Assembly: GCA_964016885.1 (NCBI GenBank)
Contig: OZ024740.1
Span: 383,718,001 to 383,782,000, forward strand
Direction: 5' to 3'
Origin: Eledone cirrhosa
Lineage: Eukaryota
DNA: 64,000 nucleotides
Below the pieces are notes generated by a model, which made no database searches, had not been told where the DNA came from, and saw only the letters and a list, made by a program, of their open reading frames with translations. This document shows, in pieces, positions 1-56,152 of this stretch; position 1 is the stretch's first letter; every line of letters begins with the position of its first letter. The translations under genes were made by a program, and so were the position numbers.

Positions 1-2640
1 GGATATCTTCCACATTGCTGTAGCTTTTAATGTGTTTATTATCGGGGCTATCTTTTTTACGAACTGCATTGTACAGTATTGTGGCCACTACATCATACTT
101 CATAGGTAAAGAGTACCGCGATAACATCTTTGGACAGCTGCTGATGACATCTTTGATATATCGATGTTAGTTCTGCAGAGTCTGCACTTGTTATCACTTC
201 TAGGTGTTTTTCCTGCAACCCTATCTCTTTTTTGAATCAGGTATTTCGTGTTAATCTCCTGTTCTTGGATTGCAAAAGCTTATCCTTCAAAGTGGGAGCC
301 AATATAGCGTTATTGGTCCAAGATAGACTACTTTCCTTATCTATATTACTCTCACTCTGGAGCTTCGTGGCAACATATCCATGCATTATTTTATCCATGG
401 ATTCACTGCGATACTGTTGAGCGACTTCCCTGGGTGTGAGTTTTTGATTATCACACAGGGAATATCTCTCGATGATTTCCCTACCAACTCTCATGATCTT
501 ATCTGTTTCATGCAGATAGACTTGCACGAAAAACGAGCTCCTACGTTTCGAGGTTCGTAGATGTTGTCGGAGACATATGATGCGACATTCAAATGTTGTC
601 TGGACTGATGTTAGGCTCTGCCTCCCTGCTTACGTTTCAAGTAAAGGCGGTCTATCTCACTGTTGATGGGGAAGTTTCCGGTGTTGTTTAGTATTTTTCG
701 AATTCCAACATCAACTGCTCGGATTTCGTCTATCGTCCAATTGAGTATTCCAAACGTTGGTGTTAGGACAGGCACTGCAAACACATTGTGAGCCACTGTT
801 TTGTTTTGCGCAGAGAGTTCCGATGACCAGATCTTTCTTAATCGGGTGTAGTATTCCCTGGTTACGTGTTCTTTATTACAGATACCATTATAGGATATGT
901 TCTCATTTATCCCCAGGTATCTGTAGCAGTCCTCATCAGATATCGGTGAAACAGTTAGGCCATTGATGACAATGTTTCTAGATTGGGTTGTTGTTATTCC
1001 CCGCTTTACAGTCATGTATGAGCATTTATCTTGGCTAAACTCCATTCCTATATCCTTTGTGAACGTTGTAACCAAGTCAAGACTTTTCTTCATCCCATCC
1101 ATGTTCTTGACATAGAGTTTCAGATCGCCCACAAAGAAATTATGGGATAGGTTCGTATTTCTGTCCTCCTGTGAGCCAATGATGTATGCCTCACATTTCT
1201 TGAGCAGAAAGTACAAGGGGTTTAATGACAAGATGAATAATATCACAGAGAGACTGTTCCCCTGAAATATACCACTGCAATATTTTATTTCATCAATGAA
1301 AATAGAATCCTCCCTCTCTGTCTTTAACCTTAGGATAGTAGCCCAAGAAGAAGACAGCCTCTCTATGGCTCTGACAATAATGTCTGGGACTTTAGCAAGT
1401 TGGAGGGCCTCTATCATTCAAGAGTGGGGAACATAATCTAAAGCTTTCCTGTAGTCCAACCAGACTGTAGCCATAATCCTCTTAAGTTGTCGCACCTCCG
1501 ACATCGCAGTTTTGTTGATTAGGAGTTGTTCAGCACATCCCCAAAACACTTTCTTTCCAGCTGCTTGTTCATCTGTGATGATGTTATTATTTTTACAGTG
1601 ATCTTGGAGGAATAGGTTCAGGCAGGCTGTATACATGTTATACATCAGGTTCTGGCATGCAATGGGTTGGTAGTATTTGGCCAAATGGGTGTCTTTGTTC
1701 TTGGGGACCAGTAATGTTTGTGCTAATGTCAACCATTCTGGTATGAGTGTATCTCCCTTAAGAACTTGTTGGTAGAGGTCAGTAAGATACCTCCGATAGA
1801 AAATCAATTGTTTGTACCAATAGCCGATAATCATGTCTCTTCCTGGTGTTTTCTTATCTTGGACTTTTCCTATCACAGTCTCAAGGGTACCCCCACTTAT
1901 TTCGTATGTTTTTGTTGTAGTGTATGAGCAATAATTCTTTCGGATTTCTCTTAGCCACACTGCATCTTGGTTGAAATTCTTCTTTTCTCCCCATATTTTG
2001 CTCCAAAAGAATCTATGTCTTTCTGGGATGGGGCCTCAGTGACACTTATTATTTCGTTCTTCATATCTCTATAGACTGATGTTTGGTTTCGTCTGAATTT
2101 TTTATTAATCACCTTTCTCTCATCTACCTTCTTCAGATATCGGCGTTTTTCGCTAACAGCTTTCAATTCTTGTTTGAGGGTGATCAGTTTATATTGAAAT
2201 GTTCTGGTTCTACTGTTACCAAACATCGTCTCTATTTTATTTTTCACTCTTTGTTGGTGAGGAGTGAGGTTTTATTGTGTGTGTTTGCATGTAAGGAGCA
2301 TTGTCACATATCCTATGGTTTTTCGTAGGTCAGCAATCTTTTTTCTATTTTAGTTATATATGATGGTATTTTTGGTGGTGTTCTGTTCTTGTTAATATCT
2401 CTGCTATCACCAAGATAATGCTCCACTGTTGTTGCTAAGGAATATAAACAGGCGTTGATTTGCCAAGATGTTGGGGTTTCTATCCGTCGTAAATATTCAT
2501 CCCCTATTTCGTCAATAACACGTAATATTTAATTATTTGTTTTTTTTTCTTATTAAACATTGTCGTTTTAACACGTTCAGCAAGATAAATTTTTATACAT
2601 AAATTAATTTCTCTCTGGAAGATTTCGTTGAGGGAAATAT
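1..2640 (-). mobile_element. R4/Dong-clade RLE non-LTR retrotransposon, 5'-truncated and frameshifted (family A); runs off the window start
   Basis: ORFs 1951-2247, 1418-1960, 611-1417 and 237-527 carry RT motifs (KTPGRD, YQPIAC, WLDYRKALD, GIFQGNSLS, FFVGDLKLY, YRYLG). CRLC knuckle near 170-190. Homologous to 33750-36360. The 5' junction abuts a GTATGTAT tract at 2641. Confidence 0.9.
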
Positions 2641-4031
2641 GTATGTATCTGTGTATGAATCCATCTCAGGCACGATGCACTCCAGTTGAGTAGAAAAAAA
2701 TGACAATTTAGGGACAGAGAACACCAAAGATCACGCAGGCGATTATCATTTAAAAGAAAGCGGGGAATTAAATGTCGGCATTTTTTGAAATATGTTGATT
2801 AAATATCAGATATATAGAACAGATTTTGTACTTGCACACCTAACATCTGACATATTAACGCACACACGTATAATGGATAACTCTAAAGACAATTACAACT
2901 AGATATACAGGGTTCGACATATACACGCATGCATACACATATCCAAGCACATAACTCCATACGAAAAAGCTAAATTATCTCATCTATTGCAGCTTGACAC
3001 AACATTTTCATTACATAATTGACATAAAAACATAAATAACAACATTTAACAGGAATACACAACATTATACAACTCAGTTTAGAGACGTTGAAACTTCCGG
3101 CAGCTATAACTAGACATCCTCTTACATAAAAAGAAAGAAAAATAGGGTGAATCGATAGCGACAAGAATAGCACGAACTGATGCATATAGGTGGTGGCTAT
3201 TTTCTTCCCCCACTTGATATTGAACCCACCCTCGTGGAGTCTGTCAGTCACCATCAAAGGAGACATGACGTCAGAGGTCAACATCAGATAGTCAGACACC
3301 CCCTATGGAAGCCCTTTTTTTCATCACTTCCCTATCTCATGGTAAACGAAGCTTCGTATCTACAACACGTGAATAAAAAGGTTCATGTTGGTTGATAACA
3401 AAGGCAAGGCTTTCGCCATCTTATCTGATTAAATTCATTATTTAATTTGTTTTCTACTTTTATGGAACAAGATTGTATAATTTAATTGGAATTTGTTGAA
3501 TAATGAACAATTGATTAATCGATGGGTTAATTTGAGTAATAGTCGGTGGAAATTCGCATTTTCTAAGAACATTTATGTGTTGTTGGTATTGTGATATTTT
3601 CCTTTACAATTTATAGAATCTTTGACCATTTGACTAGATACTATTCGCCGAATTATATGTTTTTCCATGAAGAACTTAATCAGAGTTGACGGCCAGAGCT
3701 GGTTGCAATTCTCAGAGTCGCAGAACTAGTTACAGGAATGAAAGAATGTATCCTCAAATAGGAGAGCTTTTCTAAATGCTTTTAAAATGGTCATCTCCGC
3801 TAAAGGCAGCAAATCCCCAACTGGTGTTCTTTACCCTCTTTATATATATATATATGTATATATATATATTGTTATACTTTGGGAGGGTCATGTTGCCAAT
3901 AAGAAACACACGCACTAGTTGCTTTCACTTCAATTTATTATATATTTATAAATTTATAAATTTACAAATCTACAAACTTATAAATTTCTGGTTGGTTGGT
4001 TGGTTCCACAACCAGATAGTTGTTTATATAT

Positions 4032-4076
4032 ATACATAGTCCTTTCGTCACACACTCTGTGACCTCTTCAGTGACT
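4032..4076 (-). ncRNA. Minimal type-I hammerhead ribozyme, helix I damaged
   Basis: Minus strand: agtca-CTGAAGA-g-gtcaca(gagtg)tgtgac-GAAA-gga-CTA-tgtat. The 3' strand reads tgtat instead of tgact. Confidence 0.7.
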
Positions 4077-4371
4077 GGGATTCCTTTCTTTGTTTCTGTG
4101 CCTTTCCTTTCTTCTATCCTACGCCATTTTGTTTCTGTGTGTGTGTGTTGTGTGCTGAGTTTGCGCATGCGCCGAATCCGGGTGTCTGTTTGTGTTCATT
4201 TATCTATTTGTTTATTTATTTATTTATTTATTGTTGGTTGGTTGTTGTTCTATGTGTGTGTGTGTTTTTATTTTGTCCTGTGTGTGTTTTCATTTTATCC
4301 TTAATTGTAAGTTGTTTGTTCTATGTGTGTGTGTGTTTTCATTTTGTCCTGTGTGTGTTTTCATTTTGTCC

Positions 4372-6879
4372 TTAATTGTAAGTTGTGATGTTGCTGTTCC
4401 ACTCATATTTTCTATTTAATTTTGGTTGTAATTCTTTTATGCTTACTGCCTCTGTAATTTGCCTAAACATTGCATCTTTTCTGTGTGTGGATTCTATTTT
4501 TATTTCTATGTTCTCTAATCTACCCCTGTGTTCTATCTTAGCATGTTGGTAGAGCACAGATGATTCTTTATTATTTTGAAGGTCTCGCCAGTGTTCATTT
4601 ATTCGTTCCCCTATATTACGAGCTGTCTCACCTATGTACACTATATTTTTGTTTCTACATTGTCCTTCAGTACATCTCATGCTATACACTACATTTCTAG
4701 TTTTACAGTTAATATGGGGGCTTATTTTACAGGTTATACATTTCTTATCTATACATGAGGGTCTTTGTAACGGGTATGTCTTGCTAATAAGTGTTTTTAC
4801 GGAGGTACCTGGTCTTTCTACTATCTTAATATTGAGTTTATGTTTATTTAGGGCCCTTCTAAATTTGTAGGCTAGTTCGCCTCTAGGGGTTGTATTGATG
4901 AACATTACACTCTGGTATTTATTGCTATCATACCATGAGTTTATTCTATTGGCCTTGTTCCTAGTTCTTTCTATTCTATTCCAAAATTTGCTCCTATACA
5001 AGGGGCAGGTCCCATTTATGTCATTATTTACCATTTTTTCCCATTTGGTTCTGGCTCCTTTATACACTCTGATTCTATCTCTCTGATTGTAGCCAGAGAA
5101 CTGCATACGGTGGATGAAGTGTTGTATGTGTCTCTCTAGTTCTTCGGGGTTGCACATGCGGGACACATTTCTCATCACCCGTACCAAATCCGCAATCAGT
5201 ATGTTGATTTTGGTATGGCCCGAAATGGCCGAGTTTCGGTGGATCAGATGTTTGGAAGTCATGGGTTTGGCATAATGGGAATGGAGGATTTGTTTTTGGT
5301 TGTTAATGGTATCTAACCAGAGCTCTGTGTCTAGTACAGGTAGTCGATGGTTGGGGTGTCTACTTGGGTAGTCTATAGTAATTCAATTGCTCTGGTGGAT
5401 GGAGTTTGCTATTTGCTGGATGCTTTCCATTCTGTTTTTCTCTAGTTCCTGACTGTTCTTTAGTGGGGGTGTCCTAACTACGATGTTTATATCATCTACG
5501 TAGCGGGAGTACATTTTCAGGGTTAAGCTGTCTTCTAAATGTTCTTTAAGTTTTTGTTTAAGTCTACTGTCCAACCATACCATGAATAAGTTAGCTATGT
5601 CGCCTGCAATGCTAACACCAATGGCTGCTCCTTCCTCTTGGGCATATGTTTTACCATTAAATTTGAACATATGTTCCTTAAGGGTTAATTTTATGCTGGC
5701 CCCTACCGCATGTGCAATCATTTTCTTCAGTTCATCGTGGTTTTCGGTTGTCCGTATGGCTCTGGTCCACCCGTTCCATCTATCTGTGTGGGTTTTCTTG
5801 GCCATTGAGGTAATGGTAGGTGGTCTGCCTCTTGCTGGTCTTGTAGGGCACAGGTTGCTAAGTTCATAAGTGTCTAGGTAACTATTACTATGGGTAAGCT
5901 TAAGTAGAAGTCCCAGCTCACTGGTATCAATCCCACGGAACTCAACCTTGCTCTCGCTGATCATTTCTACGCATTTCTCCACAGCAAAATCTACGTCAAT
6001 AGATGGATACAGGGACACAACATCCATACTGCCTATTATGCAGTGTGTTAGGTCCCCAGATCGGTTACACGCGCCGATTATGCTGAGGAGGTCCTCCGTG
6101 CTGTCACATACATCTGCGGACATCTCAATGATGGGGCGTATGATCAGGAAGAGGAAGTAGGACAGTATGTAGTTACTAGCAATGTTAGCTCCACAGACTG
6201 GCCGCGTTGGTGGTCCCGCGACAGGGTCCCAGCCCGTTTTATGGTCTTTTCGAAGCCCATACAACGCCGGCACGTCATTGTTCCAGGCCTGGAAGTTGTT
6301 GGCAGTCCTTTTGTTGGGCTGCATTATATTCGTCCACATCACCATATGGGCATTGGGGGCTTGTTCTCTATCCTCATGCTCCTGTGGTGTTACCTCTCTT
6401 GTGTTAGTGATGTGGGGTTGCATTGCCTGGATGTAGTTTGGCAGGCTGTCAACCGACATTCTGCCAGACTTGTCTGTTGGAAAGCATGCTATCTCTCCAT
6501 TACGCGAGCGCTGCATGAGCTTACGCAAGCCATTTGCAGATTTTTCTCCCAGTTGCTGGGCCTCTATTCTATTATGCTTCTTGCTATACTGTTCTATAAT
6601 ATTTCTAAGTTCGGATTTAGCTATACTAAATTGTGCTTCTGTTTGTTCATCGACCTGCGACGGCAACTGCGTGCGTTTGTTAAATGGCAAAGTCGTGGCG
6701 TGGACTCGTCGCAGGTCGAATGATTTATCGGAGTGATTATAAAACGGAGAGTTCCAGGCTGCTTCTTTATGTGTACTAGTGCTACTGTTATTGTTAGTTG
6801 TGTTGTTTCTATTTCTATTTCCACCAACAGCCTCATGGTTGTTTCTATGTCTCTCATAATTACTCCTGTCTCTTTCCAC
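4372..6879 (-). pseudogene. PLE RT/GIY-YIG ORF in one reading frame, interrupted by an in-frame TGA at 5383-5385 (further TAA upstream near 6969)
   Basis: ORFs 5383-6879 and 4372-5262 are in the same frame; YVDD and YIGET are intact. Confidence 0.9.
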
Positions 6880-9800
6880 TGGCTCAATGTTGTTATCTAC
6901 CCTATTTTGTGTGTCTGTGTGTTCGTCTTGGTTATTCTCTTTGTCCTTAGTCTCCCATCTCTTTTACCTTTTAATCCTATTACTTTCCCTTATTTCTCTG
7001 ATTTCTGTGCTACTGTCATTACTTGTTTTCTGTGTCTGTGTGTTTGTTAAGATTGTGGTGGTGGTGAGAGGCATTGAATGCGTGTGTGTTGTTGATGTGT
7101 GTTGTTGTTGATGTGTGTTGTTGTTGTCTCACACATCCCAACAACAACAGACACACAGACACAAACAACAATAACAACAACATACACATCAACAACAACA
7201 ACAATAGCAACATACCCAGATACAACAACAACAGACTCGCAGACACAAACAACAATAACAACACACACAACAACGATAACACACACGGAGACAACAACAC
7301 ACATCAACAACAACACACATCAACAACAACAACACACACGCATTCAATGCCTCTCACCACCACCACAATCTTAACAAACACACAGACACAGAAAACAAGT
7401 AATGACAGTAGCACAGAAATCAGAGAAATAAGGGAAAGTAATAGGATTAAAAGGAAAAGGAGATGGGAGACTAAGGACAAAGAGAATAACCAAGACGAAC
7501 ACACAGACACACAAAATAGGGTAGATAACAACATTGAGCTAGTGGAGAGAGACAGGAGTAATTATGAGAGACATAGAAACAACCATGAGGCTGTTGGTGG
7601 AAATAGAAATAGAAACAACACAACTATCAATAACAATAGCACTAGTACACATAAAGCAGCAGCCTGGAACTCTCCGTTTTATAATCCCTCCGATAAATCA
7701 TTCGACCTGCGACGAGTCCACGCCACGACTTTGCCATTTAACAAACGCACGCAGTTGCCGTCGCAGGTCGATGAACAAACAGAAGCACAATTTAGTATAG
7801 CTAAATCCGAACTTAGAAATATTATAGAACAGTATAGCAAGAAGCATAATAGAATAGAGGCCCAGCAACTGGGAGAAAAATCTGCAAATGGCTTGCGTAA
7901 GCTCATGCAGCGCTCGCGTAATGGAGAGATAGCATGCTTTCCAACAGACAAGTCTGGCAGAATGTCGGTTGACAGCCTGCCAAACTACATCCAGGCAATG
8001 CAACCCCACATCACTAACACAAGAGAGGTAACACCACAGGAGCATGAGGATAGAGAAAAAGCCCTCAATGCCCATATGGTGATGTGGACGAATATAATGC
8101 AGCCCAACAAAAGGACTGCCAACAACTTCCAGGCCTGGAACAATGACGTGCCGGCGTTGTATGGGCTTCGAAAAGACCATAAAACGGGCTGGGACCCTGT
8201 CGCGGGACCACCAACACGGCCAGTCTGTGGAGCTAACATTGCTAGTAACTACAGACTGTCCTACTTCCTCTCCCTGATCATACGCCCCATCATTGAGATG
8301 TCCCCCAGATGTATGTGACAGCACGGAGGAAATCCTCAGCAGAATCGGCGCGTGTAACCGATCTGGGGACATAACAAACTGCATAATAGGCAGTATGGAT
8401 GTTGTGCCCCTGTATCCATCTATTGACGTGGATGTTGCTGTGGAGAAATGCGTAGAAATGATCAGCGAGAGCAAGGTTGAGTTCCGTGGGATTGATACCA
8501 GTGAGCTGGGACTTCTACTTAAGCTTACCCATAGTAATAGTTACCTAGACACTTATGAACTTAGCAACCTGTGCCCTACAAGACCAGCAAGAGGCAGACC
8601 ACCTACCGTTACCTCAATGGCCAAGAAAACCCACACAGATAGATGGAACGGGTGGACCAGAGCCATACGGACACCCGAAAACCACGATGAACTGAAGAAA
8701 ATGATTGCACATGCGGTAGGGGCCAGCATAAAATTAACCCTTAAGGAACATATGTTCAAATTTAATGGTAAAACATATGCCCAAGAGGAAGGAGCAGCCA
8801 TTGGTGTTAGCATTGCAGGCGACATAGCTAACTTATTCATGGTATGGTGGGACAGTAGACTTAAAAAAAAACTTAAAGAACAATTAGAATCAGCTTAACC
8901 CTGATAATGTACTCCCGCTACGTAGATGATATAAACATCGTAGTTAGGACACCCCCACTAAAGAACAGTCAGTAACTAGAGAAAAACACAATGGAAAGCA
9001 TCCAGCAAATAGCAAACTCCATCCACCAGAGCATTAGATTTACTATAGACTACCCGAGTAGACACCCCAACCATCGATTACCTGTACTAGACACAGAGCT
9101 CTGGTTAGATACCATTAACAACCAAAAACAAATCCTCCATTCCCATTATGCCAAACCCATGACTTCCAAACATCTGATCCACCGAAACTCGGCCATTTCG
9201 GGCCATACCAAAATCAACATACTGATTGCGGATTTGGTACGGGTGATGAGAAATGTGTCCCGCATGTGCAACCCCGAAGAACTAGAGAGACACATACAAC
9301 ACTTCATCCACCGTATGCAGTTCTCTGGCTACAATCAGAGAGATAGAATCAGAGTGTATAAAGGAGCCAGAACCAAATGGGAAAAAATGGTAAATAATGA
9401 CATAAATGGGACCTGCCCCTTGTATAGGAGCAAATTTTGGAATAGAATAGAAAGAACTAGGAACAAGGCCAATAGAATAAACTCATGGTATGATAGCAAT
9501 AAATACCAGAGTGTAATGTTCATCAATACAACCCCTAGAGGCGAACTAGCCTACAAATTTAGAAGGGCCCTAAATAAACATAAACTTAATATTAAGATAG
9601 TAGAAAGACCAGGTACCTCCGTAAAAACACTTATTAGCAAGACATACCCGTTCCAAAGACCCTCATGTATAGATAAGAAATGTATAACCTGTAAAATAAG
9701 CCCCCATATTAACTGTAAAACTAGAAATGTAGTGTATAGCATAAGATGTACTGAAGGACAATGTAGAAACAAAAATATAGTGTACATAGATGAGACAGCT

Positions 9801-10245
9801 CGTAGTATAGGGGAACGAATAAATGAACACTGGCGAGACCTTCAAAACAATAAAGAATCATCTGTGCTCTACCAACATGCTAAGATAGAACACAGGGGTA
9901 GATTAGAGATCATAGACATAAAAATAGAATCCACACACAGAAAAGATGCAATGTTTAGGCAAATTACAGAGGCAGTAAGCATAAAAGAATTACAACCAAA
10001 ATTAAATAGAAAATATGAGTGGAACAGCAACATCACAACTTACAATTAAGGACAAAATGAAAACACACACAGGACAAAATGAAAACACACACACACATAG
10101 AACAAACAACTTACAATTAAGGACAAAATGAAAACACACACAGGACAAAATAAAATCACACACACACATAAACAAACAACCAACCAACAATAAATAAATA
10201 AATAAATAAACAAATAGATAAATGAACACAAACACACACAGACAC

Positions 10246-10299
10246 CCGGATGTGGCGCATGCGCAAACTGAGCACACAACACACAGAAACAAAATGGCG
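10246..10299 (+). promoter_or_regulatory. Putative PLE pLTR promoter motifs (ETS-like, NRF1-like, YY1-like)
   Basis: CCGGATGT 10246-10253, GCGCATGCGCA 10255-10265 and AAAATGGCG 10291-10299, just upstream of the HHR. Confidence 0.4.
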
Positions 10300-10345
10300 T
10301 AGGATAGAAGAAAGGAAAGGCACAGAAACAAAGAAAGGAATCCCC

Positions 10346-10390
10346 AGTCACTGAAGAGGTCACAGAGTGTGTGACGAAAGGACTATGACT
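10346..10390 (+). ncRNA. Minimal type-I hammerhead ribozyme in the PLE 3' pLTR
   Basis: agtca-CTGAAGA-g-gtcaca(gagtg)tgtgac-GAAA-gga-CTA-tgact. Helix I is agtca/tgact, helix II is 6 bp, helix III is vestigial. Confidence 0.85.
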
Positions 10391-10610
10391 ATATATAAAC
10401 AACTATCTGGTTGTGGAACCAACCAACCAACCAGAAATTTATAAGTTTGTAGATTTGTAAATTTACAAATTTATAAATATATAATAAATTGAAGTGAAAG
10501 CAACTGGTGCGTGTGTTTCTTATTGGCAACATGACCCTCTCAAAGTATAACAATAACGGTTTCAACACACGATTTCAGATAAAGAATCTTGCTAAACAAA
10601 TTCAGAAACG

Positions 10611-10667
<57 letters not shown>

Positions 10668-16172: not shown

Positions 16173-18538
16173 TATTTCGTTTCTGAATTTGTTTAGCAAG
16201 ATTCTTTATCTGAAAACGTGTGTTGAAAACGATATTGTTATACTTTGGGAGGGTCATGTTGCCAATAAGAAACACACACACCAGTTGCTTTCACTCCAAT
16301 TTATTATAAATAAAAAAATTTTCTCAAAGTTCTTTCGACACACTTTCTGTGACCTCTTCAGTGACTGGGGATTATTTTCTTTGTTTTGTGCCTCTCCTTT
16401 GTTCTGTCCTACGCCATCTTGTTTTTGTGTGTGTTGTGTGCTTAGTTTGCGCATGTGTTATATCCTGGTGTCTGTGTGTCTTTTTATTTGTTTATTTATA
16501 TGTTACTGGTTGGTTGTTTTTTCTATGTGTGTGTGTTTTCATTTTGTTCTTAATTGTAAGTTGTGATGTTGCTATTCCATTCATGATTTCTATTTAATTT
16601 TGGTTGGAGTTCATTTATGTTTATTGCGTCTGTGATTTGTCTAAACATTGCGTCTTTTCTGTGTGTAGATTTTATTTTTATTTCTATGTTCTCTAATTTG
16701 CCCTTATGATCCATTTTAGCGTGTTGGTGGAGTATTGATGATTCTTTTCTATCTTGAAGTTCTCGCCAGTGTTCATTTAACCGTTCTCCTATACTACGAG
16801 CTGTCTCACCTATGTACACTATATTCTTATATTTACATTGTCCTTCAGTTCATCTTATGCTATATACTACATTTTTAGTTTTACAGTTAATAAGAGGGCT
16901 ATGTTTACAGATTATGCATTACTTATCTATACAGGGAGGTCCTTGAAAAGGGTATGTATTACTAATAAGTGTTTTTATGGAGGTACCTTAGTATTTCTAC
17001 TATCTTAATATTAAGTTTAAGTTTATCTAGGGCCCTTCTAAATTTGTAAGCTAATTCACCTCTAGGGGTTGTATTGATGAACATTACACTCAGGTATTTA
17101 TTGCTATCATACCATGAGTTCATTCTATTAACCTTATTCCTAGTTCTCTCTATTCTATTCCAAAATTTGCTCCTATACAAGGGGCATATCCCATTTGTAT
17201 CATTGTTTATCATGTTTTCCCATTTTGTTCTGGCAACTCTATATACTCTTATTTTATCTCTCTGATTGTAACCAAAGAACTGCATACGGTGGATGAAGTG
17301 TTGTATGTGTCTCTCTAGTTCTTTGGGGTTGCACACGCGGGTCACGTTTCTCATCACCCGTACTAAATCCACAATCAGTATGGTGACTTTGGTGTGATCG
17401 GAAACAGCTGAGATTCGGTTGATCAGATATTTGGAAGTCGTGGGTTTGGCATAATGGGAATGGACGATTTGTGTTTTGTTATTAATGGTTTCTAACCAGA
17501 GCTCTGTGTCTAGTACAGGTAATCGATAGTTGGGGTGTTTGCTTGGGTAGTCTATTGTAAGTGTAATACTCTGGTGGATGGGGTTAGCTATTTGCTGGAT
17601 GCTTTCCATGTTGTTTTTCTCTAATTCCTGGCTGTTCTCTAGTGGGGTGTTTTTACTACGATATTTATATCATCAACGTAGCGAGAGTACATTATCAGGT
17701 TAAGAGGTTGCTGTCTTCTAATCGTTCTTTAAGTTTATTGTCCCACCATACCATGAATAGGTTAGCTATGTCACCTGCAATGCTAACACCAATGGCTGCA
17801 CCCTCCTCTTGGGCATATGTTTTTCCATTAAATTTGAACATATGTTCCTCAAGGGTTAGTTTTATACTGGCCCCCACCACATGTACAATCATTTTCTTTA
17901 GTTCATCGAGGTTTTCGGAGGTCCGTATGGCTCTGGTGCACCCGTTCCATCTTTCTGTGTGGGTTTTCTTGGCCATTGAGGTAATGGTAGGTGGTCTGCC
18001 TCTTGCTGGTCTTGTGGGACAGAGGTTGCTAAGGTCGAAATGAACACTGGCGAGAGCTTCAAGATAGAAAAGAATCATCATTATTCCACCAACATTAAAT
18101 AGAAAACATGAATAGAATAGCAACATCACAACTTACAATTAAGGACAACATGAAAACACACCCACATAGAACAAACAACCAACCAGTAACATGTAAATAA
18201 ACAAATAAAAATACACACATACACCCGGATGTAACACATGCGCAAACTAAGCACACAGAACACACACAAACAAGATGGCGTAGAACAGAACAAAGGAGAG
18301 GCACAAAACAAAGAAAATACTCCCAATCACTGAAGAGGTCACAGAAAGTGTGTCGAAAGAACTTTGACAATATATGAACAACTCTCCGGTTGTGGAACCA
18401 ACCAACGGAAAATTTATAAATTACAAAAAATAAAAGATTTTAAGAACATTTTTTTGAAAAAAAAAATTAATGTATAATAAATTGGAGTGAAAGTTACTGG
18501 TGCGTGTGTTTCTTATTGGCAACATGACCCTCCCAAAG

Positions 18539-32955: not shown

Positions 32956-35900
32956 GTCAACGCGATCAGTCGCATATTTTGGAGTGGGAGACTATTTATT
33001 AAATTTAAGATGAATACTATCTACGACAGTAATGCCACAATTACAGTCATGTTGAATAACTGGTTATTCGAATTCGTAGAGATATCCGACTAAATACATA
33101 ATTCATTTTACAAGGATTTGCTACAAACAGCATGGCTGAAAACAACATCATCAACAACATTAAGGAAGTACCTAAGACAAATAACAAGGAAGGTAAACAA
33201 ACTTTATTCAGTTGTAGCTACAGAAGAAACGGAAATTATAAATCGCATTTCTCTTCGAGTTGCGAACTTAATAATGGTTTATATAATTGTTATAAAATGG
33301 CAAAAACGAATCCCTCCATTGGCTATATGAACAGAATGAAGCTACACTGTTACGAAATACACCAAGAGCAAAATTATTTCACAGCAAAACAACTACGCAA
33401 ACAATAGACGTTTGTTGAACGTAAAAATAAGATAAATATTATTAATTGTAAGTCCCCCACAACAAACATGTTAGCAACAACACGTGCTACAGGTCGCCAT
33501 GCTACTAGAGTTCCTAGCAGCCAGGTCAAACAGCGCCTTGAAACAACTATGCCTGTAAGAAACTTGACACCACCTGTACCATCTAAGTCTACCTCAAATG
33601 CTGGGGAAAACACTATCGATAATAATAATAATCGAAGAAATAATAATGATAATCGAAGAAATTTGACACCACGTGAACCATCCGAGTCTACCTCGACTGT
33701 TGTGGAAAATATTATCGATAATGATAATAATCAAAAGTATAAACAATTGCAATTTTCCCTCAACGAATTCTTCCAGAAAGAAATTAATTCATGTATAAAT
33801 ATCTCTCTTGCTCAACGTATTAAAACGACAATGTTTAATAAAAAAAACCAAATTAATGAAATATTACGTGGGATGAATATTTACGACGGATAAAAACCCC
33901 AACATTTTGGCAAATCAACGCCTGTTTATATGCCTTTGCAACAACAGTGAAGCATTATCTTGGTGATAGCAGAGATATTAACAAGAACAGAAAACCACCA
34001 AAAATACCATCATATATAACTAAAATAGAAAAAAAGATTGCTGACCTACGAAATAACATAGGATATGTGACAATGCTCCTTACATGGAAACAAACTAAAA
34101 AAAAACGTCATTCCACACCAACAAAGAGTGAAAAATAAAATAGAGACGATGTTTGGTAACAGTAGAACCATAACTCTCCAATATAAGCTGATCACTCTCA
34201 AACAAAAATTGAGAGCTGTTAGCGAAAAACGCCGATACCTGAAGAAGGTAAATGAGAGAAACGTCATTAATAAAAGATTCAGACAAAACCAAACATCAGT
34301 CTATAGAGATATGAAGGACAAAATAATAAGTGACACTGAGGCCCCATCCCAGAAAGACATTAATTCCTTTTGGAGCAAAATATGGGGAGAAAAGAAGAAT
34401 TTCAACCAAGATGCAGTGTGGTTAAGAGAAATTCGAAATAATGATTTCTCCTACACTACAACAAAAACATACGAAATAAGTGAGGGTACTCTTGAGACTG
34501 TGATAGGAAAAGTCCAAGATAAGAAAACACCAGGAAGAGACATGATTGTCGGCTACTGGTACAAAAAACTGATCTCTACTAACAATTCTTAATAGAGATG
34601 CTCTTATACCAGAATGGTTGACATTACCACAAACATTACTGATCCCCAAGAATCCATTTGGCAAAAAACTATCGACCCATTGCATGCCAGAACCTGATGT
34701 ATAAGATGTATACAGCCTGCCTGAACCTATTCCTCCAAGATCACTGTTAAAATAATAATATCATCACAGATGAACAAGCAGCTGGAAAGAAAGTGTTTTG
34801 GGGATGTGCTGAACAACTCCTAATCAACAAAACTGCGATGTCGGAGGTGCGACAACTTAGGAGGAATATGGCTACAGCCTGTCTGGACAACAGCTAAGCT
34901 TTCGATTCTGTTCCTCACTCTTGGATGATAGAGGCCCTCCAACTTGCTAAAGTTCCAGACATTATTGTCAGAGCCATAGAGAGGCTGTCTTCTTCTTGGG
35001 ATACTATCCTAAGATTAAAGACAGAGAGGGAGGGTTCTATTTTCACTGATAAAATAAAATATTGCAGGTGTATATTTCAGGGGGACAGTCTCTCTGTGAT
35101 ATTATTCATCTTGTCATTTAACCCCTTGTCTGCTCAAGAAATGTGAAGCCTACATCATTGCCTCACAGGAGGACAGAAATACGAACCTATCCCATACTTT
35201 CTTTGTGGGCGATCTGAAACTCTATGCCAAGAACATGGATGGGACGAAGAAAATTCTTAACCTGTTTAAAACGTTCTCAAAGGATATAGGAATGGAGTTT
35301 GGCCAAGAAAAATGTTCATACATGACTGTAAAGCGTGGAAAAAACAACAACCCAATCTAGTAACATTGTCATCAATAGCCTAACTGTTTCACAGATATCT
35401 GATGAGGACTGCTACACATACCTGGGGATAGATGGAAACATATCCTATAATGGTATCTGTAATAAAGAACGCGTAACCAGGGAATACTACACCCGCTTAA
35501 GAAAGATCTGGTCATCGGAACTCTCTGCGCAAAACAAAACAGTGGCTCACAATGTGTTTGCTGTGCTTGTCCTAACACCAACGTTTGGAATACTCAATTG
35601 GACGATAGACGAAATCTGAGCAGTTGATGTTGGAACTCGAAAAAATACTAAACAACACCGGCAACTTCCACATCAACAGTGTCATAGATCGCCTTTACTT
35701 GAAACGTAAGCAGGGAGGCAGAGGTTTTACATAAGTCCAGACAACATTTGAATGTCGCATCATATCTCTCCGACAACATCTACGAACCTCGAAGCGTAGG
35801 AGCATGTTTCTCGAGCAAGTCTATCTGCATGAAACAGATAAGATCATGAGAGTTGGGAAGGATCTACTCGAGAGATATTCCCTGATTGATAATCAAAAAC

Positions 35901-36950
35901 CCACATCCAGAGAAGTCGCTCAGCACTATCTCAGTGAATCCATGGATGAAAAACTACACACTTATTAGCAAAGCATCATGCATGGATATGTTGCCAAGAA
36001 ACTCCAGAGTGAGAGTAATATAGATAAGGAAAGTAGTCTATCTTGCACCAACAACCGCTATATTGGCTCCCACTTTGAAGGATACGATTTTGCAATCCAA
36101 GAACAGGAGATTAACACGAAATACCTGGCTCACAAAGAGATAGGGATGCAGGAAAAAACACCTAGATGTGATAACAAGTGCAGACTCTGCAGAACTAACA
36201 CTGAGGATGTCGTCAGCAGCTGTCCAAAGATGCTATCGCGGTACTATCTACCTATGAGTTATGATGTAGTGGCCACAACACAGTACAATGCAGTTCGTAA
36301 AAAAGATAGCCACGATAATAAACACATTAAAAGCTACAGCAATGTGGAAGATATCCATCTACATAATATGAAAGAGTACTGGTGCAATATTCCAATAAAA
36401 ACCCAATAAAATGCAGGCATAACAGGCAAGATATTATGATATGGGACAGGAAGAAGAAAGCATGCACAGTAGTGGAAATTAGCTGCCCAGCAGATGCCAA
36501 TATAACATCAAAGATTAGTGAAAAGGAGAATATTTATGCAAAACTGATGAGAAATCTGCAGATACCACACCCTGATTACACCTTCAGATATTTGCCTGTG
36601 ATTATTGGGGCGCTGGAGTATGTTAGTAACTGCCTCAATACAAATCTTGAGAAGCTAGGCTTCACAGGAACAGAAAGAACATATCTAGTTAGGAAATTAC
36701 AAGTACAATCCATTAATGGAACAGTAAACATATGTAAAACATTCCAAACGTCTAATAACTGCATATACACATGTACAGATGCAAAGCATATACACATGCA
36801 CACATACAACTCAAAACATCCACATCAACACATACATGCATACATACATAGTAAATGTGTAAATTCCAATGAAAGACTCTTGTGTCTATGTTAGAAACCG
36901 ACTTCTCTCTCTATTGGTAAAACTTTGTGAAATTATAAAACCAGAAGAAC
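32956..36950 (+). mobile_element. R4/Dong-clade LINE, family A, near full length but disrupted
   Basis: N-terminal GYMNRM..TAKQLRKQ motif, RT, CRLC knuckle and RLE region (RHNRQDIMIWD..VEISCPAD). Both ends lie in (ATAC)n. Confidence 0.92.
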
Positions 36951-41790: not shown

Positions 41791-42069
41791 TATATGATGT
41801 GAATGTTAGAACCTTTATGCAATGCTTTTCCCTTTAAAATATCCGATACATTTTGCCGAGATTTCCCTTCCGCAGAAAAGTTTAGTATAATTATAGACCA
41901 TAGTAGAAATGGAAACTACGTTCAAACTATTAGGGAGAATTGATTTGAATCTCTTCCTTTGTATATCATGATAATTCTATATTAATGGTTATTTGTATTA
42001 CATACATGCTTCCATGCATACATACATACACACATATATACTTAACATACATATATACATACATACATA

Positions 42070-42981
42070 ATTTGAAGGATACGCTTTTGCACTTTGAAGG
42101 ATACGCTTTTGCAATCCAAGAACAGGAAATCAACACGAAATACCCGATTCACAAAAGAGATAGGGATGCAGGCGAAACACCCAGATGTGACAACAGGTGC
42201 AGACTCTGCAGAATTAACATCGAAGATGTCACCCATGTCTTAGGCAACTGTCCAAAGATGTCATCGCGGTACTATCTACCTATGAGGCATGATGTAGTGG
42301 CCAAAACAATGTACAATGCAATCCGTAGAAAAGATAGTCCCGCTGACAAACAATGCTACAGCAATGTGAAAGACATACATATACATAATATGAAAAGGGT
42401 ACTGGTGGACTGGTCCAGTAAAAACCCCAATAAGGTGCAAGCATAACAGATCAGATATAATGATATGGGAAAGGGAAAAGAAGGCATGAACAGTAGTGGA
42501 AGTTAGCTGCCCAGCAGATGCCAATATAATATCAAAGGTTAGCGAAAAGGAGAATATTTATGCAGAAATAATGAGAAATCTGCAGATACTCCACCCTGAA
42601 TATACCTTCTGATTTATGCCTGTGATTATTGGGGCACTGGGATGTTAGTAACTGCCTCGATACAAATCTTGAGAAGCTGGGCTTCACAGAAATATAAAGA
42701 ACACAACGAGTTAGGAAATTACAAGTACAATCCATTAATGGAACAGTAAAATATGTAAAACATTCCAAAAATGTTGCATCTAATAATTGCATCCACACAT
42801 CCACACATACACATCCACACATACAGTATCATCCATACATGCACACACCTCCATGCATGCAGACATATATACATATCTACTTAGTTGATGTTGTGTAAAT
42901 TCTAATGAGAAAGTCTTGTAACTATGTTAAAACCGACTCTCTCTCTATTGGCCAACATTTGTGAAATTATAAAACCAGAAG
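42070..42981 (+). mobile_element. R4/Dong 3' fragment (related to family A) with an intact CCHC motif
   Basis: FEGYAFAIQEQEI..CRLCRINIEDVTHVLGNC. The 3' end gtgaaattataaaaccagaag is followed by (TACA)n. Confidence 0.88.
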
Positions 42982-48147: not shown

Positions 48148-49266
<1,119 letters not shown>

Positions 49267-52167
49267 ACTTTGAACTTTGAAATGTTTTGGCCAGTATTGG
49301 CCCAGGCCATGTCTAACTTAATAGCACCACCTGGCGAAGTCTTTCAATTCAGGATTTGGGCACCATGGCCCATTCGAGAAGAGAATTACTGTTTGCGGAG
49401 ACACATCCGGGTGTGGGTGGTTTGTCCGGGATTTCTTGGAGGAATTTGTCCAAAGACTTCTTGAATTTTGTGTGGTCAGTTTCTGTTTTGACGTGTCCTG
49501 GTGTGATGTTGAAGAGAGCAGGGCCGATTGAGGTGAAATAATTGTGCCGTATTGTTGTTATGAGTTGCGATTTAGAATTTTGAATGGACGGATAGCACGG
49601 GGCCCAAGCCTTGGGTGTATCTTGAAGGCGATGCCAACATCATTTGGTCAGTGATGATGGAACATTTTCCACATCATGCAGATAATATAACGCTCACGGC
49701 GACGTTGGAGTGAGTAAAGTTTCAGGTTTTCTAATCGACCCCAGTAGTCAAGGTCTGACATGCCATCTATCTTTTTCGTGATTGCCCTTTGAGGAGCTTC
49801 AAGTTTCATGATACTTTGTTTCGTGTGGGGAGACCACAGTGGACAACAGTATTCAAGGTGTGCTCGGGCAAAAGTAGAGAAGAGAAGGATAATGGTGCGG
49901 GAATCTCTCGACTGGAAGGTTCTGAGGATCCAGGAACACATTCTGCGGGCCATGTCAACTTTGCTGCTTATATGCGTGGTCCAGCTTATGTTGCTGTCCA
50001 CGGTTACTCCCAAGTCTCTGATGTTGTTAGATGCCACGAGAGTTTCCCCGGAGGGAAGGGAGTACGGGAGTTTCAGAGCATCCTCTTTTCCAAAGTGGAT
50101 CAGTTCGAATTTGTCTTCGTTCAGTAACATGTTGTTCTTTTCTGCCCATTGGGTAACAGCCAGTAGGTCTGACTGAAGGCTTATCCGGTCATCCACGCCA
50201 TTGATGACCTTTTGGAGCTTGGAATCATCAGCGAAAATTTTAATGTTGCTGTGTTTGATGATGTCAGTGATGTCATTAATATAGATGATGAAGAGAAGTG
50301 GGCCCAACACAGTGCCTTGTGGGACCCCACTACTGACTTTGGCTGGGCTTGATTTGACTCCCTCAACTACAACATGTTGGGTTCTGTTTGACAGGAAGCT
50401 CTTGATCCACTGCAGCAGCTTTCCAGTGACACCAATATTGGACAGCTTTCTCAGTAGAATGTTATGATCAACCCTGTCAAAGGCCTTGCTGAAATCAAGG
50501 TAGATAACATCAGTGTTGGAACCCTCTCCCAAGGCTCTCAAAATGTCATCAAAGTGATGCAGTAGCTGCGTCAGGCAATCCCTTCCATTACGGAATCCAT
50601 GCTGGTTGGAGTTCAGCATATTGTTACTCTCAAGGAAGTGGGTCATTCGCGATCTCACCACTCTCTCAAATACCTTAATGATATGAGAGGTGAGTGAGAT
50701 TGGACGGTAATTCACGGCAAGGGATTTGTTTCCCTTTTTGAAAACTGGGACAACAGACTGGGATAGAAGGTTTTCTGGCACATATCCAGCATCCAGTGAG
50801 TTCCGCCACAGATTGGCAAGAGGAGATGCAAGTTGGTGTTGACACGCCTTCAAGACACAAGCAGGGAACCTATCGGGACCTACTGCTGAATTATGCTTGA
50901 TTTCCTTTATTGCCGCCAAGACATCAGGGGCGCCAAACGTTATGTCCGATAAGGTGTAATGGGGAGTAACATCGCCGATACAGCCCAGATCGGCCATATC
51001 AGGATTGCTGAAAACAGAGCAGTATTGTTTCTGCAGTATCTCACCCATGGTTTTAGCATTGTCTTGAAGAGTGCCATTTTCATCAATTAGAGGGCCAACA
51101 GTAGAGCCAGTGATTTTGTGTTTTTTTGCAAATGAAAAGAACACTTTGGGATTGAGTTTGATCTTCTCAATGGCCCAGGCCTCTTCAGCTCTTCTCTGAT
51201 TGTTGATGAGGGACATTATGTTGTTTTGGAGGTTATGTTTTTTAATCTCTAGTGATGAAATGGCAGTCAAGTTGATGTGTTGCTGCTGACAGTATTTCAG
51301 CTTGTTGATTTTTTTGTTCGTTCTCTTAATTTTTCTGATGAGCGTTTTTCTATTTCTAGGGATTCTGCTCTTAGATTTGTTTATAGTTCTTAATGGGGTG
51401 TGTTTAGCACATATGTTTGTAACAGTGTCCACAAATGTCTGCCAGGACTTTTTGATGTTAGCGGGTGTATGAGTGTGCGTGAAGGACCAGTCGACATGTG
51501 CAAGATCATGACTAATCGCTTCCAAGTTTGCATTGTGGAAATCCATAGCGTCAAACGGATGGACAGGAGAGATGACATTGGGTTTGTATATTGGACGGTG
51601 GAATCTCAGATCACAGAGAACCATGTCATGATCAGAGAGTAGAGTTTTCTCCACTGCAATATTGTGGATATTGTCAGTGTGATTGCTGAAAATTAAGTCT
51701 AGGACGTTTTTGTGACACCTCGTTGGTTCGAGCACCAGTTGGGATAGGAAGAAATCATCCATGAAGTCAAGAAGCGATTACACAGCTTCCCTGTCAGAGG
51801 TTGAGGCAGAAGAACCTGGTGGCAGGCTGTTTGTGGACCAGTCAACTCCGGGGAGGTTGAAGTCCCCCATCATTAAGATGTTGTCAGGGTGACACTCTTG
51901 GATGAAACACTTTATGCTGTTGAGGCATTCCTTGAAGCATGGTACAGGCGTTTGGGGTGGCCTATAGAGCCCAACTACTAATAGGTTGTTGGTTTGACTG
52001 AATACAGTGACTGCTTCACAGTATCCATTAGTGAATATGTTCATAGCCTCTGTTGAGAAAGAATTATGGACATAAATGGCAGTTCCGCCCTTTCTTCTGC
52101 CAGCGCGATGAGCAAGGATGGCTTTGAAATTTTTCACTTTCACCTCGGCTTCCAAGTGGAGGTTACT
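49267..52167 (-). mobile_element. CR1-group LINE (APE + RT), 5'-truncated, relatively young
   Basis: APE motifs (GGTAIYV, YRPP, GDFNLP, VLDLIFS, LSDH) and RT motifs (AVGPD, NYRPISLTS, QHGFR, YLDFSKAFD, GVPQGTVLGP, IFADD). The frame is continuous apart from stops at 51778 and 49648. The 3' end carries a TTCAAAG repeat. Confidence 0.93.
49648..51762 (-). pseudogene. LINE ORF2 segment, 704 aa open
   Basis: ORF track; complete RT domain with FADD. Confidence 0.9.
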
Positions 52168-52838
<671 letters not shown>

Positions 52839-53142
52839 TAAATTGAAACAAAATGAAAACGAAATTTCATTTCTCACTCTTAGTATGGCACTTACTTAAA
52901 TGTAAGTATGCATGTATACGTACATACATATATGTGTACAGACGTACAGTAGCATGCACATATATATATATATATATACATATATATATACATATGCATA
53001 CAGGTACACATACATATATGCACGTATCAGTTTAGCGGCGCTAACGTCGCTTTGTTCGTTTGTAAACAAACTGAACAGCCTGAATTTATGCCATACGGTG
53101 TTAAGGCAACCACGTCACCTTTTTGTTCAACACTGACACAGG

Positions 53143-53187
53143 AACGATGTACTAGTTTCAAGCTTGTTAGCTATCATCAGCACCGTT
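53143..53187 (-). ncRNA. Minimal type-I hammerhead ribozyme
   Basis: aacggtg-CTGATGA-tagc(taacaa)gctt-GAAA-ctag-TA-catcgtt. Confidence 0.88.
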
Positions 53188-53608
53188 TACCCATCTGCCA
53201 GATAGTTGAACGTTCGAAAGTATATACTTTCCTTATGAAAATTAACGGCTGAGCAGCCTAATTTGCATATTGAGTGAGTTAAATCGGTCAGGCATACCGA
53301 AAACGATAAATTGAAACAAAATGAAAACGAAATTTCATTTCTCACTCTTAGTATGGCACTTACTTAAATGTAAGTATGCATGTATACGTACATACATATA
53401 TGTGTACAGACGTACAGTAGCATGCACATATATATATATATATACATATATATATACATATGCATACAGGTACACATACATATATGCACGTATCAGTTTA
53501 GCGGCGCTAACGTCGCTTTGTTCGTTTGTAAACAAACTGAACAGCCTGAATTTATGCCATACGGTGTTAAGGCAACCACGTCACCTTTTTGTTCAACACT
53601 GACACAGG

Positions 53609-53653
53609 AACGATGTACTAGTTTCAAGCTTGTTAGCTATCATCAGCACCGTT
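53609..53653 (-). ncRNA. Minimal type-I hammerhead ribozyme
   Basis: Identical to 53143-53187, 466 nt away. Confidence 0.88.
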
Positions 53654-53806
53654 TACCCATCTGCCGTTTTCATTTTGTTTCAATTTATCGTTTTCGGTAT
53701 GCCTGACCGATTTAACTCACTCAATATGCAAATTAGGCTGCTCAGCCGTTAATTTTCATAAGGAAAGTATATACTTTCGAACGTTCAACTATCTGGCAGA
53801 TGGGTA

Positions 53807-53851
53807 AACGGTGCTGATGATAGCTAACAAGCTTGAAACTAGTACATCGTT
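53807..53851 (+). ncRNA. Minimal type-I hammerhead ribozyme
   Basis: 7-bp helix I aacggtg/catcgtt, CTGATGA 53814-53820, GAAA 53835-53838, palindromic ACTAGT helix III. Predicted cut after A53844. Confidence 0.88.
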
Positions 53852-54092
53852 CCTGTGTCAGTGTTGAACAAAAAGGTGACGTGGTTGCCTTAAAACCGTA
53901 TGGCATAAATTCAGGCTGTTCAGTTTGTTTACAAACGAACAAAGCGACGTTAGCGCCGCTAAACTGATACGTGCATATATGTATGTGTACCTGTATGCAT
54001 ATGTATATATATATGTATATATATATATATATATGTCCATGCTACTGTACGTCTGTACACATATATGTATGTACGTATACATGCATACTTAC

Positions 54093-55893
<1,801 letters not shown>

Positions 55894-55948
55894 GTGAGGT
55901 TTTTTTTACAAAATGAAAAATAACCGAGGTGTCCTACACGAGTGAAAG

Positions 55949-56152
55949 TATAAAGAAAAAGAGATGAAATCGAAAATGCAACTGAAGTCTTATTATTTTT
56001 TTTTTTTTTTTTTAAATATATATATTTATTGGTTCCTTTACCGGTTTCGCACTGCGAAACCGGTAAAGGAACCAAATAAATATATATATTTAAAAGTAGG
56101 AAAAAAAAAAAATAATAAGACTTAAGTTGCATTTTCGATTTCATCTCTTTTT

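What the first reader, a model, noticed from the sequence alone, without database searches (positions are those of the whole stretch)
52839..54092. Young tandem hammerhead unit that would excise a 466-nt monomer (non-LTR retrozyme candidate)
Seen: a non-coding 466-468-bp unit repeated head-to-tail, with identical intact HHRs at 53143-53187 and 53609-53653 (minus) and a third in an inverted arm, all between large (TA)n arrays. Helix III is only the palindrome ACUAGU. Established: PLE-type minimal HHRs with palindromic helix III cleave as dimers, and tandem type-I HHR repeats (non-LTR retrozymes) yield circular RNAs. Inference: a minus-strand transcript could form the dimer in cis and release a 466-nt circularisable RNA copied by a PLE RT.
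Basis: partly seen in the sequence, partly recalled or inferred. Interest (0 to 1): 0.9.

Follow-up and report, generated by a model that had tools for sequence, protein, structure and literature searches.

The report
Two-armed Penelope-copied hammerhead retrozyme insertion
This is one young copy of a protein-free repeat with a hammerhead-ribozyme motif, present in over 15,000 units in this animal genome, whose back-to-back arms end at two fixed sites as Penelope-type jumping genes do, so it was likely written into the DNA by such an enzyme, probably from an RNA several units long rather than from the single excised circle first proposed.

Summary
Observation confirmed: 1.77 tandem units (minus strand) plus a 433-nt inverted arm, three identical minimal type-I hammerheads, cut sites 466 nt apart, all inside (TA)n. 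The family is large (15,418 exact copies of one 30-mer) and non-coding. Inherited changes avoid the hammerhead core (2/24 vs 50/143 columns). Insertions carry the Penelope footprint: head-to-head arms, one ending at site A and the other at site B about 60 nt further on (24 of 25 and 28 of 28 classifiable pairs). 5' ends do not pile at the cut site (11 vs 20 at a control site), so cut linear monomers are not the template. But long arrays are not clonal: two loci repeat the same ordered series of different units in both arms, pointing to multi-unit templates (DNA-level exchange not excluded). This locus is probably a product, not a source: read-through across the inverted arm buries both ribozymes. 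No coding partner was found by sequence. The scan had already noted this family on other DNA of this genome. New member of a known kind.

The parts
52838..53305 (-). Full unit U1-U468; its 3' end (site B, with the ~62-nt tail) joins the left (TA)n array
53306..53665 (-). 5'-truncated unit U108/109-U468; with the full unit it forms the 828-nt B arm
53665..54094 (+). Inverted A arm, U445-468 + U1 to site A (U404-406), tail-less end into the right (TA)n array; 1-nt microhomology (C, 53665) at the head-to-head junction; 2 mismatches to the B arm in 389 non-microsatellite positions
53143..53187 (-). Minimal type-I hammerhead; predicted cut after 53150 (GUA)
53609..53653 (-). Identical hammerhead; predicted cut after 53616
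53807..53851 (+). Identical hammerhead in the inverted arm
52840..52901 (-). Tail between site A and site B (62 nt), present at this end only; two short hairpins, site A at the loop of the first
53216..53268 (-). Candidate promoter block: octamer ATGCAAAT (53261-53268) and a 16-bp palindrome with TATA-like centre (53216-53231); function inferred, untested. Second copy at 53726-53778 (+); missing from the truncated unit
   Evidence: octamer meaning recalled; newt satellite 2 snRNA-type promoter per a passage in PMC2220036
52167..52839 (.). Left (TA)n target array
54095..55889 (.). Right (TA)n target array

Best explanation
This is a young insertion of an abundant non-coding hammerhead tandem repeat (a non-LTR retrozyme) with back-to-back arms that end at two fixed sites in (TA)n, likely made when a Penelope-like RT/GIY-YIG enzyme cut both DNA strands and copied a probably multi-unit RNA from two internal start sites about 60 nt apart. 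Shown: family size, non-coding unit, selection on the hammerhead, the A+B end rule, random 5' ends, one subfamily per insertion. Inferred from PAc biochemistry (PMC11167929): both nicked strands prime reverse transcription, one at site A and one at site B, and the two cDNAs join head to head by microhomology. Inferred: the template has no free 5' end at the ribozyme site and often holds several non-identical units, so it is an uncut tandem transcript or a multimeric circle made by partial cleavage and ligation; occasional monomer circles would re-found uniform arrays. Inferred: this locus is a product, with longer arrays as sources. The helper family is unidentified.
For: Ends: 87 of 105 arms end at A (41) or B (46). 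Of 37 head-to-head pairs 25 are classifiable, 24 A+B (p=8e-7); re-scored with 40 more loci, 28 of 28 classifiable of 53 pairs, 8 of them in the older marker-sampled set. The coding PLE at window 4182-10613 has the same two ends, 60 nt apart (41 of 54 motif hits, some loci overlapping). 5' junctions genome-wide: 11 at the cut site, 29 two bases upstream, 20 at a control site; 2 of 135 sampled 5' ends at U150-160. Multi-unit template: L221/222 has the series [8-nt-deleted unit][136T unit][136C unit] in both arms, in register from sites A and B, with different 5' ends; L207 (19 units) has the block [136T][8-nt deletion] in both arms and twice in one; arm-to-arm mismatch shows no dip near the junction (1.6, 1.6, 1.1, 0.9% by distance, 29 loci), so routine junction conversion is not seen. 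Selection: inherited variants in 2 of 24 core/helix columns vs 50 of 143 background (p=0.008), while private ones hit the core at background rate (19/12 vs 186/143 columns).
Against: Only two loci show mirrored heterogeneity, both found through one variant (20 hits, 15 single). Mosaic sharing in L235 and L238 and local two-unit repeats in L230 and L205 show that DNA-level exchange or inherited mosaics occur, and conversion could mimic mirroring. Ten variants fixed across whole arrays in 7 of 22 multi-unit loci fit a single-unit founder. A linear uncut transcript should leave a pile of 5' ends at its start; only a mild excess at U436-468 was seen (16 of 93 arms; p=0.04). No helper shares detectable sequence. 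25 of 53 pairs could not be classified. No RNA or cleavage data.
Confidence: 0.6

Rival explanations
1. One reading: dimeric self-cleavage releases a 466-nt monomer, a ligase closes it, the PLE RT rolls round it from sites A and B; heterogeneity in long arrays comes later from unequal crossover and conversion.
For: No 5'-end pile at the cut site or elsewhere; internal initiation suits a circle; units within a locus are far more alike than between loci (median 0.4% vs 3.8%); fixed private variants in 7 of 22 arrays; very long arrays are already present in the youngest subfamily (L207); hammerhead under selection; circles are shown for coral, mussel and axolotl retrozymes (PMC7229834).
Against: Needs two changes converted between arms in L221 and an out-of-register two-unit conversion in L207, with no sign of junction-proximal conversion; 6 of 6 long arrays non-clonal; weak cleavage of minimal hammerheads (PMC4209133), and uncut RNA is the main PAc substrate (PMC11167929).
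Confidence: 0.3
2. The unit is only the pLTR of a coding PLE, left as 5'-truncated pieces.
For: Same architecture, target and tail as coding PLEs here; PLE fragments lie near some copies.
Against: The unit repeats on itself up to 15 times per arm across subfamilies 74-100% identical; in about 94 loci no ORF leads into it as a 3' repeat; neighbouring PLEs have their own unrelated pLTRs and hammerheads; the two junctions with PLE ORFs are an antisense insertion (L126) and a mid-endonuclease join (L031). The sample is about 1% of the family, all from the first 70 Mb of one chromosome.
Confidence: 0.05
3. A DNA-level satellite that spreads and folds back at breaks in self-complementary (TA)n, or by self-priming on an antisense template, with the hammerhead as a relic.
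For: Inverted duplications of flanking DNA occur at several 5' junctions; DNA-level exchange is likely in long arrays; antisense self-priming was proposed for head-to-head PLE junctions (PMC3846280, passage).
Against: Fold-back gives symmetric junctions and no fixed ends; here junctions are asymmetric and ends obey the A+B rule; inherited variants avoid the ribozyme.
Confidence: 0.05

Closest known systems
Metazoan non-LTR retrozymes (Cervera and de la Pena 2020, PMC7229834, parts 2-4 of 6 read; Li, Clavereau and Pollet 2026, 10.64898/2026.07.22.740005, parts 1-3 of 5 read)
   Same: Non-coding tandem units, one type-I hammerhead each, low GC, thousands of copies, co-resident PLEs; U.U at the base of helix II as in HHR_Amex2; PLE mobilisation proposed.
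   Different: 466 nt, above the 170-400 nt of Cervera but inside the 51-972 bp of Li; minimal hammerhead; no pLTR homologue found, unlike 24 of 57 Xenopus families; two-armed layout, fixed ends and multi-unit templates are not described in the parts read; circles untested here.
EN+ Penelope-like elements: pLTR, 5' inversion and tail (Craig et al. 2021, PMC8557442, passages; Arkhipova et al. 2013, PMC3846280, passages; Frangieh et al. 2024, PMC11167929, parts 1-2 of 4)
   Same: Partial tandems, head-to-head inversion, tail at one end only, (TA)n target; two ends matching the two internal RT start sites shown for PAc.
   Different: No ORF; tail 59-63 nt rather than 30-40; the whole unit is the repeat.
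Non-autonomous Chlamys elements such as MRC1 (PMC8557442, passage)
   Same: Non-coding PLE dependants with pLTRs and multicopy head-to-tail insertions.
   Different: Those resemble their helpers at the 3' end and mostly lack canonical hammerheads; here a hammerhead is kept and no helper similarity was found.
Newt satellite 2 (seen only as cited in PMC2220036 and PMC7229834; the original paper is not held)
   Same: Tandem hammerhead satellite with weak palindromic helix III; internal snRNA-type promoter, which the octamer block here may parallel.
   Different: Promoter here is a sequence guess; unit unrelated as far as tested (no direct comparison made).

Membership tests
non-LTR retrozyme | Type-I hammerhead in each of at least two consecutive tandem units | tested here: met
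non-LTR retrozyme | No protein coding | tested here: met
   only (TA)n read-through frames of 150 aa or more overlap it; no PLE protein hit on the unit
non-LTR retrozyme | GC below 50%, unit of a few hundred bases | tested here: met
   39% GC; 422-570 nt by subfamily; above Cervera's 170-400, within Li's 51-972
non-LTR retrozyme | No LTR, PBS or PPT | tested here: inconclusive
   ends are PLE-type, not LTR-type; PBS and PPT not searched
non-LTR retrozyme | Self-cleavage (as dimer) | not testable with these tools
   indirect only: selection and covariation
non-LTR retrozyme | Expressed as linear and circular monomer RNA | not testable with these tools
non-LTR retrozyme | Target-site duplication longer than 4 bp when present | tested here: inconclusive
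   (TA)n target hides it; one possible 6-9 bp duplication in L126
non-autonomous Penelope-like element | Partial tandems with 5' head-to-head inversion | tested here: met
   53 head-to-head pairs among 175 arms
non-autonomous Penelope-like element | Tail at one end only (two fixed 3' ends) | tested here: met
   24 of 25 and 28 of 28 classifiable pairs
non-autonomous Penelope-like element | Insertion into (TA)n or AT-rich DNA | tested here: met
   73 of 80 A or B ends followed by TA repeats
non-autonomous Penelope-like element | Sequence homology to the pLTR of an autonomous family | tested here: inconclusive
   none significant against six resident pLTRs (lowest p 0.045 of 22 comparisons); other families exist and were not read

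The most novel reading that the evidence does not exclude
In this retrozyme family both DNA ends of a break are primed on one multi-unit RNA, at two sites 60 nt apart, and the conserved hammerhead does not normally cut that RNA into monomers before copying: the template is an uncut tandem transcript or a multimeric circle. The two arms of each insertion are then two independent read-outs of one RNA molecule, thousands of times over, which would let the rolling-circle model of retrozyme and PLE spread be tested from genome sequence alone.
Probability: 0.45. Interest if true: 0.65.

Novelty: new member of a known kind. Interest (0 to 1): 0.42.

Why it matters
How retrozymes get into DNA is proposed, not shown, in the papers read. 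This family joins the retrozyme model to the two internal RT start sites measured for one PLE, and gives genome-wide evidence against cut linear monomers as templates and first evidence against a pure monomer circle. Intact young PLE ORFs in the same genome make a helper assay straightforward. The class itself is known, and this scan has reported the family before.

Tried and rejected
DNA search of the own genome returned nothing because common words are skipped; patterns were used instead. No RNA holder was listed (six runs of unrecorded kind, four studies): no evidence either way. Contigs of four runs showed only family variants, and one contig matching 35 nt of the tail; its flank has no exact match in this genome, so it was dropped as a helper lead. 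Helper search: a Pfam family was not in the library; protein searches gave families D and E. A-to-B spacings are U 59-63, PLE-A 60, B 46, C about 93, D 40, E about 44, X 63-65: A and X fit, neither shares significant sequence (a 14/16 match near PLE-A site B, p about 0.2). Head-to-head joins of U with other elements (L025, L031, L044, L047, L066) involve several unrelated families, so they do not name a helper. Collision of the two RTs was rejected: the U436-468 excess is in both arm types. The circular monomer's z of -7 is inflated by self-complementary TA repeats and is not used. One search was a faulty control pattern; its zero is void and one search replaces it. Rows left out: 5 of 45 new marker clusters were not fetched; alignment A1 omits 11 of the 54 loci (five near-identical, six with indels or truncation), which favours pairing; one search printed only loci with three or more detected units. 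Paper searches; no supplements were read, and those of the 2026 preprint or of PMC7229834 (Fig. S9) may bear on novelty.

Full report
Observation. The stretch holds a full 468-nt unit (U, ribozyme sense on the minus strand, 53305 to 52838), a 360-nt 5'-truncated copy identical but for a 2-nt microsatellite indel, and a 433-nt inverted arm at 99.3%. The three hammerhead cores are identical; the two tandem cut sites are 466 nt apart. Helix III is the palindrome ACUAGU, helix II is four pairs above a U.U, helix I six to seven pairs within a longer stem. Rfam gives only a sub-threshold hammerhead match.

Family. The 33-nt core occurs 10,608 times exactly in the 3.0-Gb genome (reversed control 0) and an upstream 30-mer 15,418 times. 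I read 54 loci from the first hits on C1 and 40 of 45 further clusters found only by the upstream marker. Subfamilies run from 74% to 100% identity to U; the window copy belongs to the youngest, with zero differences to other loci over U1-258. No ORF leads into the unit in these loci. The closest named relative of a neighbouring PLE protein is from Octopus vulgaris at 67%; I did not pursue the source further.

The hammerhead is under selection. In 54 marker-bearing loci, variants shared by three or more loci fall in 2 of 24 core, helix II and helix III columns against 50 of 143 background columns (p=0.008), whereas private substitutions hit the core at the background rate. Free positions (N7, loop II) vary, also in an independent run's contigs. 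In alignment A1 (44 rows, 11 loci omitted) 96.9% of cells pair and one helix I pair reads G.U, A-U or U.G (17, 11, 10); only this one pair changes on both sides, probably one event. Selection shows that the fold matters for spread, not that it cleaves efficiently: minimal PLE hammerheads cleave weakly as dimers (PMC4209133, part 1 and passages), 1 of 9 Xenopus dimers cleaved (Li 2026), and the PAc hammerhead needs protein and is dispensable for insertion in vitro (PMC11167929).

Penelope footprint. Arms end at two fixed points followed by (TA)n: site A (U404-406) and site B (U466-468). In head-to-head pairs one arm ends at A and the other at B: 24 of 25 classifiable among 37 pairs (p=8e-7), and 28 of 28 among 53 when re-scored with the older set. 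The window locus obeys the rule (B arm left, A arm right, 1-nt microhomology). Coding PLEs here do the same: the family at window 4182-10613, with intact 1226-1261-aa frames elsewhere, ends 22 or 82 nt after its ATG. Frangieh et al. showed that such tails are the interval between two internal RT start sites and that both strands are cut and extended. I infer double priming at one break. Tail spacing of U (59-63 nt) fits PLE-A (60) and a D-related pLTR, X (63-65), not B (46), C (about 93), D (40) or E (about 44). No pLTR shares significant sequence with U, so the helper is open.

What is the template? Cut linear monomers would leave 5' ends at U157. Genome-wide there are 11 such junctions, 29 at U155 and 20 at control U162, and 2 of 135 sampled ends lie at U150-160. 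So the template is uncut or closed. For a monomer circle: each of 22 multi-unit loci is of one subfamily, within-locus divergence is a tenth of between-locus divergence, and 10 private variants are fixed across arrays in 7 loci. Against it as the only route: L207, 19 near-identical units, carries a two-unit block (136C>T, then an 8-nt deletion) in both arms and twice in one. A search for that variant gave 20 hits, among them L221/222, where both arms read deleted unit, 136T unit, 136C unit, ending at A and B of the same third unit, with different 5' ends. All 6 arrays of five or more units examined share variants among subsets of units; L231 repeats three variants at a period of six, L230 and L205 locally at two, L235 and L238 are mosaics. 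Arm-to-arm mismatch does not fall near the junction, which argues against routine conversion but does not exclude it. One multi-unit RNA copied from both sites is the simplest reading of L207 and L221; DNA-level exchange remains the rival.

This locus. The tandem part alone forms both ribozyme stems (helix II 0.9-1.0), but a minus-strand transcript crossing the inverted arm buries them (helix I at most 0.18 and 0.00). The candidate promoter block (octamer and TATA-centred palindrome, U37-90) is missing from the truncated upstream unit. So the locus is probably a product. One escape: if the palindrome fires both ways, as suggested for a rotifer pLTR (PMC3846280), the copy in the inverted arm could start a minus-strand RNA with both ribozymes and little antisense.

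Comparison and novelty. It meets every testable feature of non-LTR retrozymes and the structural features of non-autonomous PLEs, but for homology to a helper. Seven paper searches found no description of this family, or of tails, two-armed ends or multi-unit templates in retrozymes; supplements were not read. Earlier notes of this scan report the same two-armed family and mostly favour one circle; my reading was fixed before seeing them, and the tests afterwards weakened the single-monomer-circle view and did not reproduce an editing signal. Verdict: real, a new member of a known kind, with a useful mechanistic handle; interest 0.42.

Noticed in passing
window 3900-10613: Two-armed insertion of a young coding PLE (RT + GIY-YIG, own hammerhead near 10345-10392, ends 22 and 82 nt after the ATG); 36,935 search candidates, intact frames of 1226-1261 aa elsewhere; possibly Hydra clade, not tested. 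An older copy lies at about 16270-18530.
   Followed up: partly
window 49266-52167 (-): APE-endonuclease/RT LINE fragment bounded by (TA)n on both sides; a 96%-identical copy also sits beside a U array (L015/L016).
   Followed up: partly
window 55889-56150: Tiny two-armed insertion of a pLTR related to PLE family D (element X), ends 63-65 nt apart; same A+B layout.
   Followed up: partly
window 52167-52839 and 54095-55889: The (TA)n arrays carry interspersed G almost only on the + strand (GC skew 0.66-0.74 at 54-56 kb), on both sides of the insertion; unexplained.
   Followed up: no
L126:4773-7896: A U dimer inserted antisense into a coding PLE ORF, then copied with it into the PLE's inverted arm: U travels as a passenger.
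   Followed up: partly
L031:3205-4700: U arm (A end) joined in the same sense to the endonuclease region of PLE family C, whose B-end arm forms the other side: template switch or target deletion.
   Followed up: partly
L010, L042, L053, L058, L066, L082, L192: At least six further hammerhead families in PLE-like or unknown repeats, several with palindromic helix III.
   Followed up: no
L038, L046, L047, L055: Short inverted duplications of flanking or foreign DNA at 5' junctions of U arms.
   Followed up: partly
window 611-2035, 34071-36894, 41949-42446: Fragments of other non-LTR RT-like ORFs.
   Followed up: no
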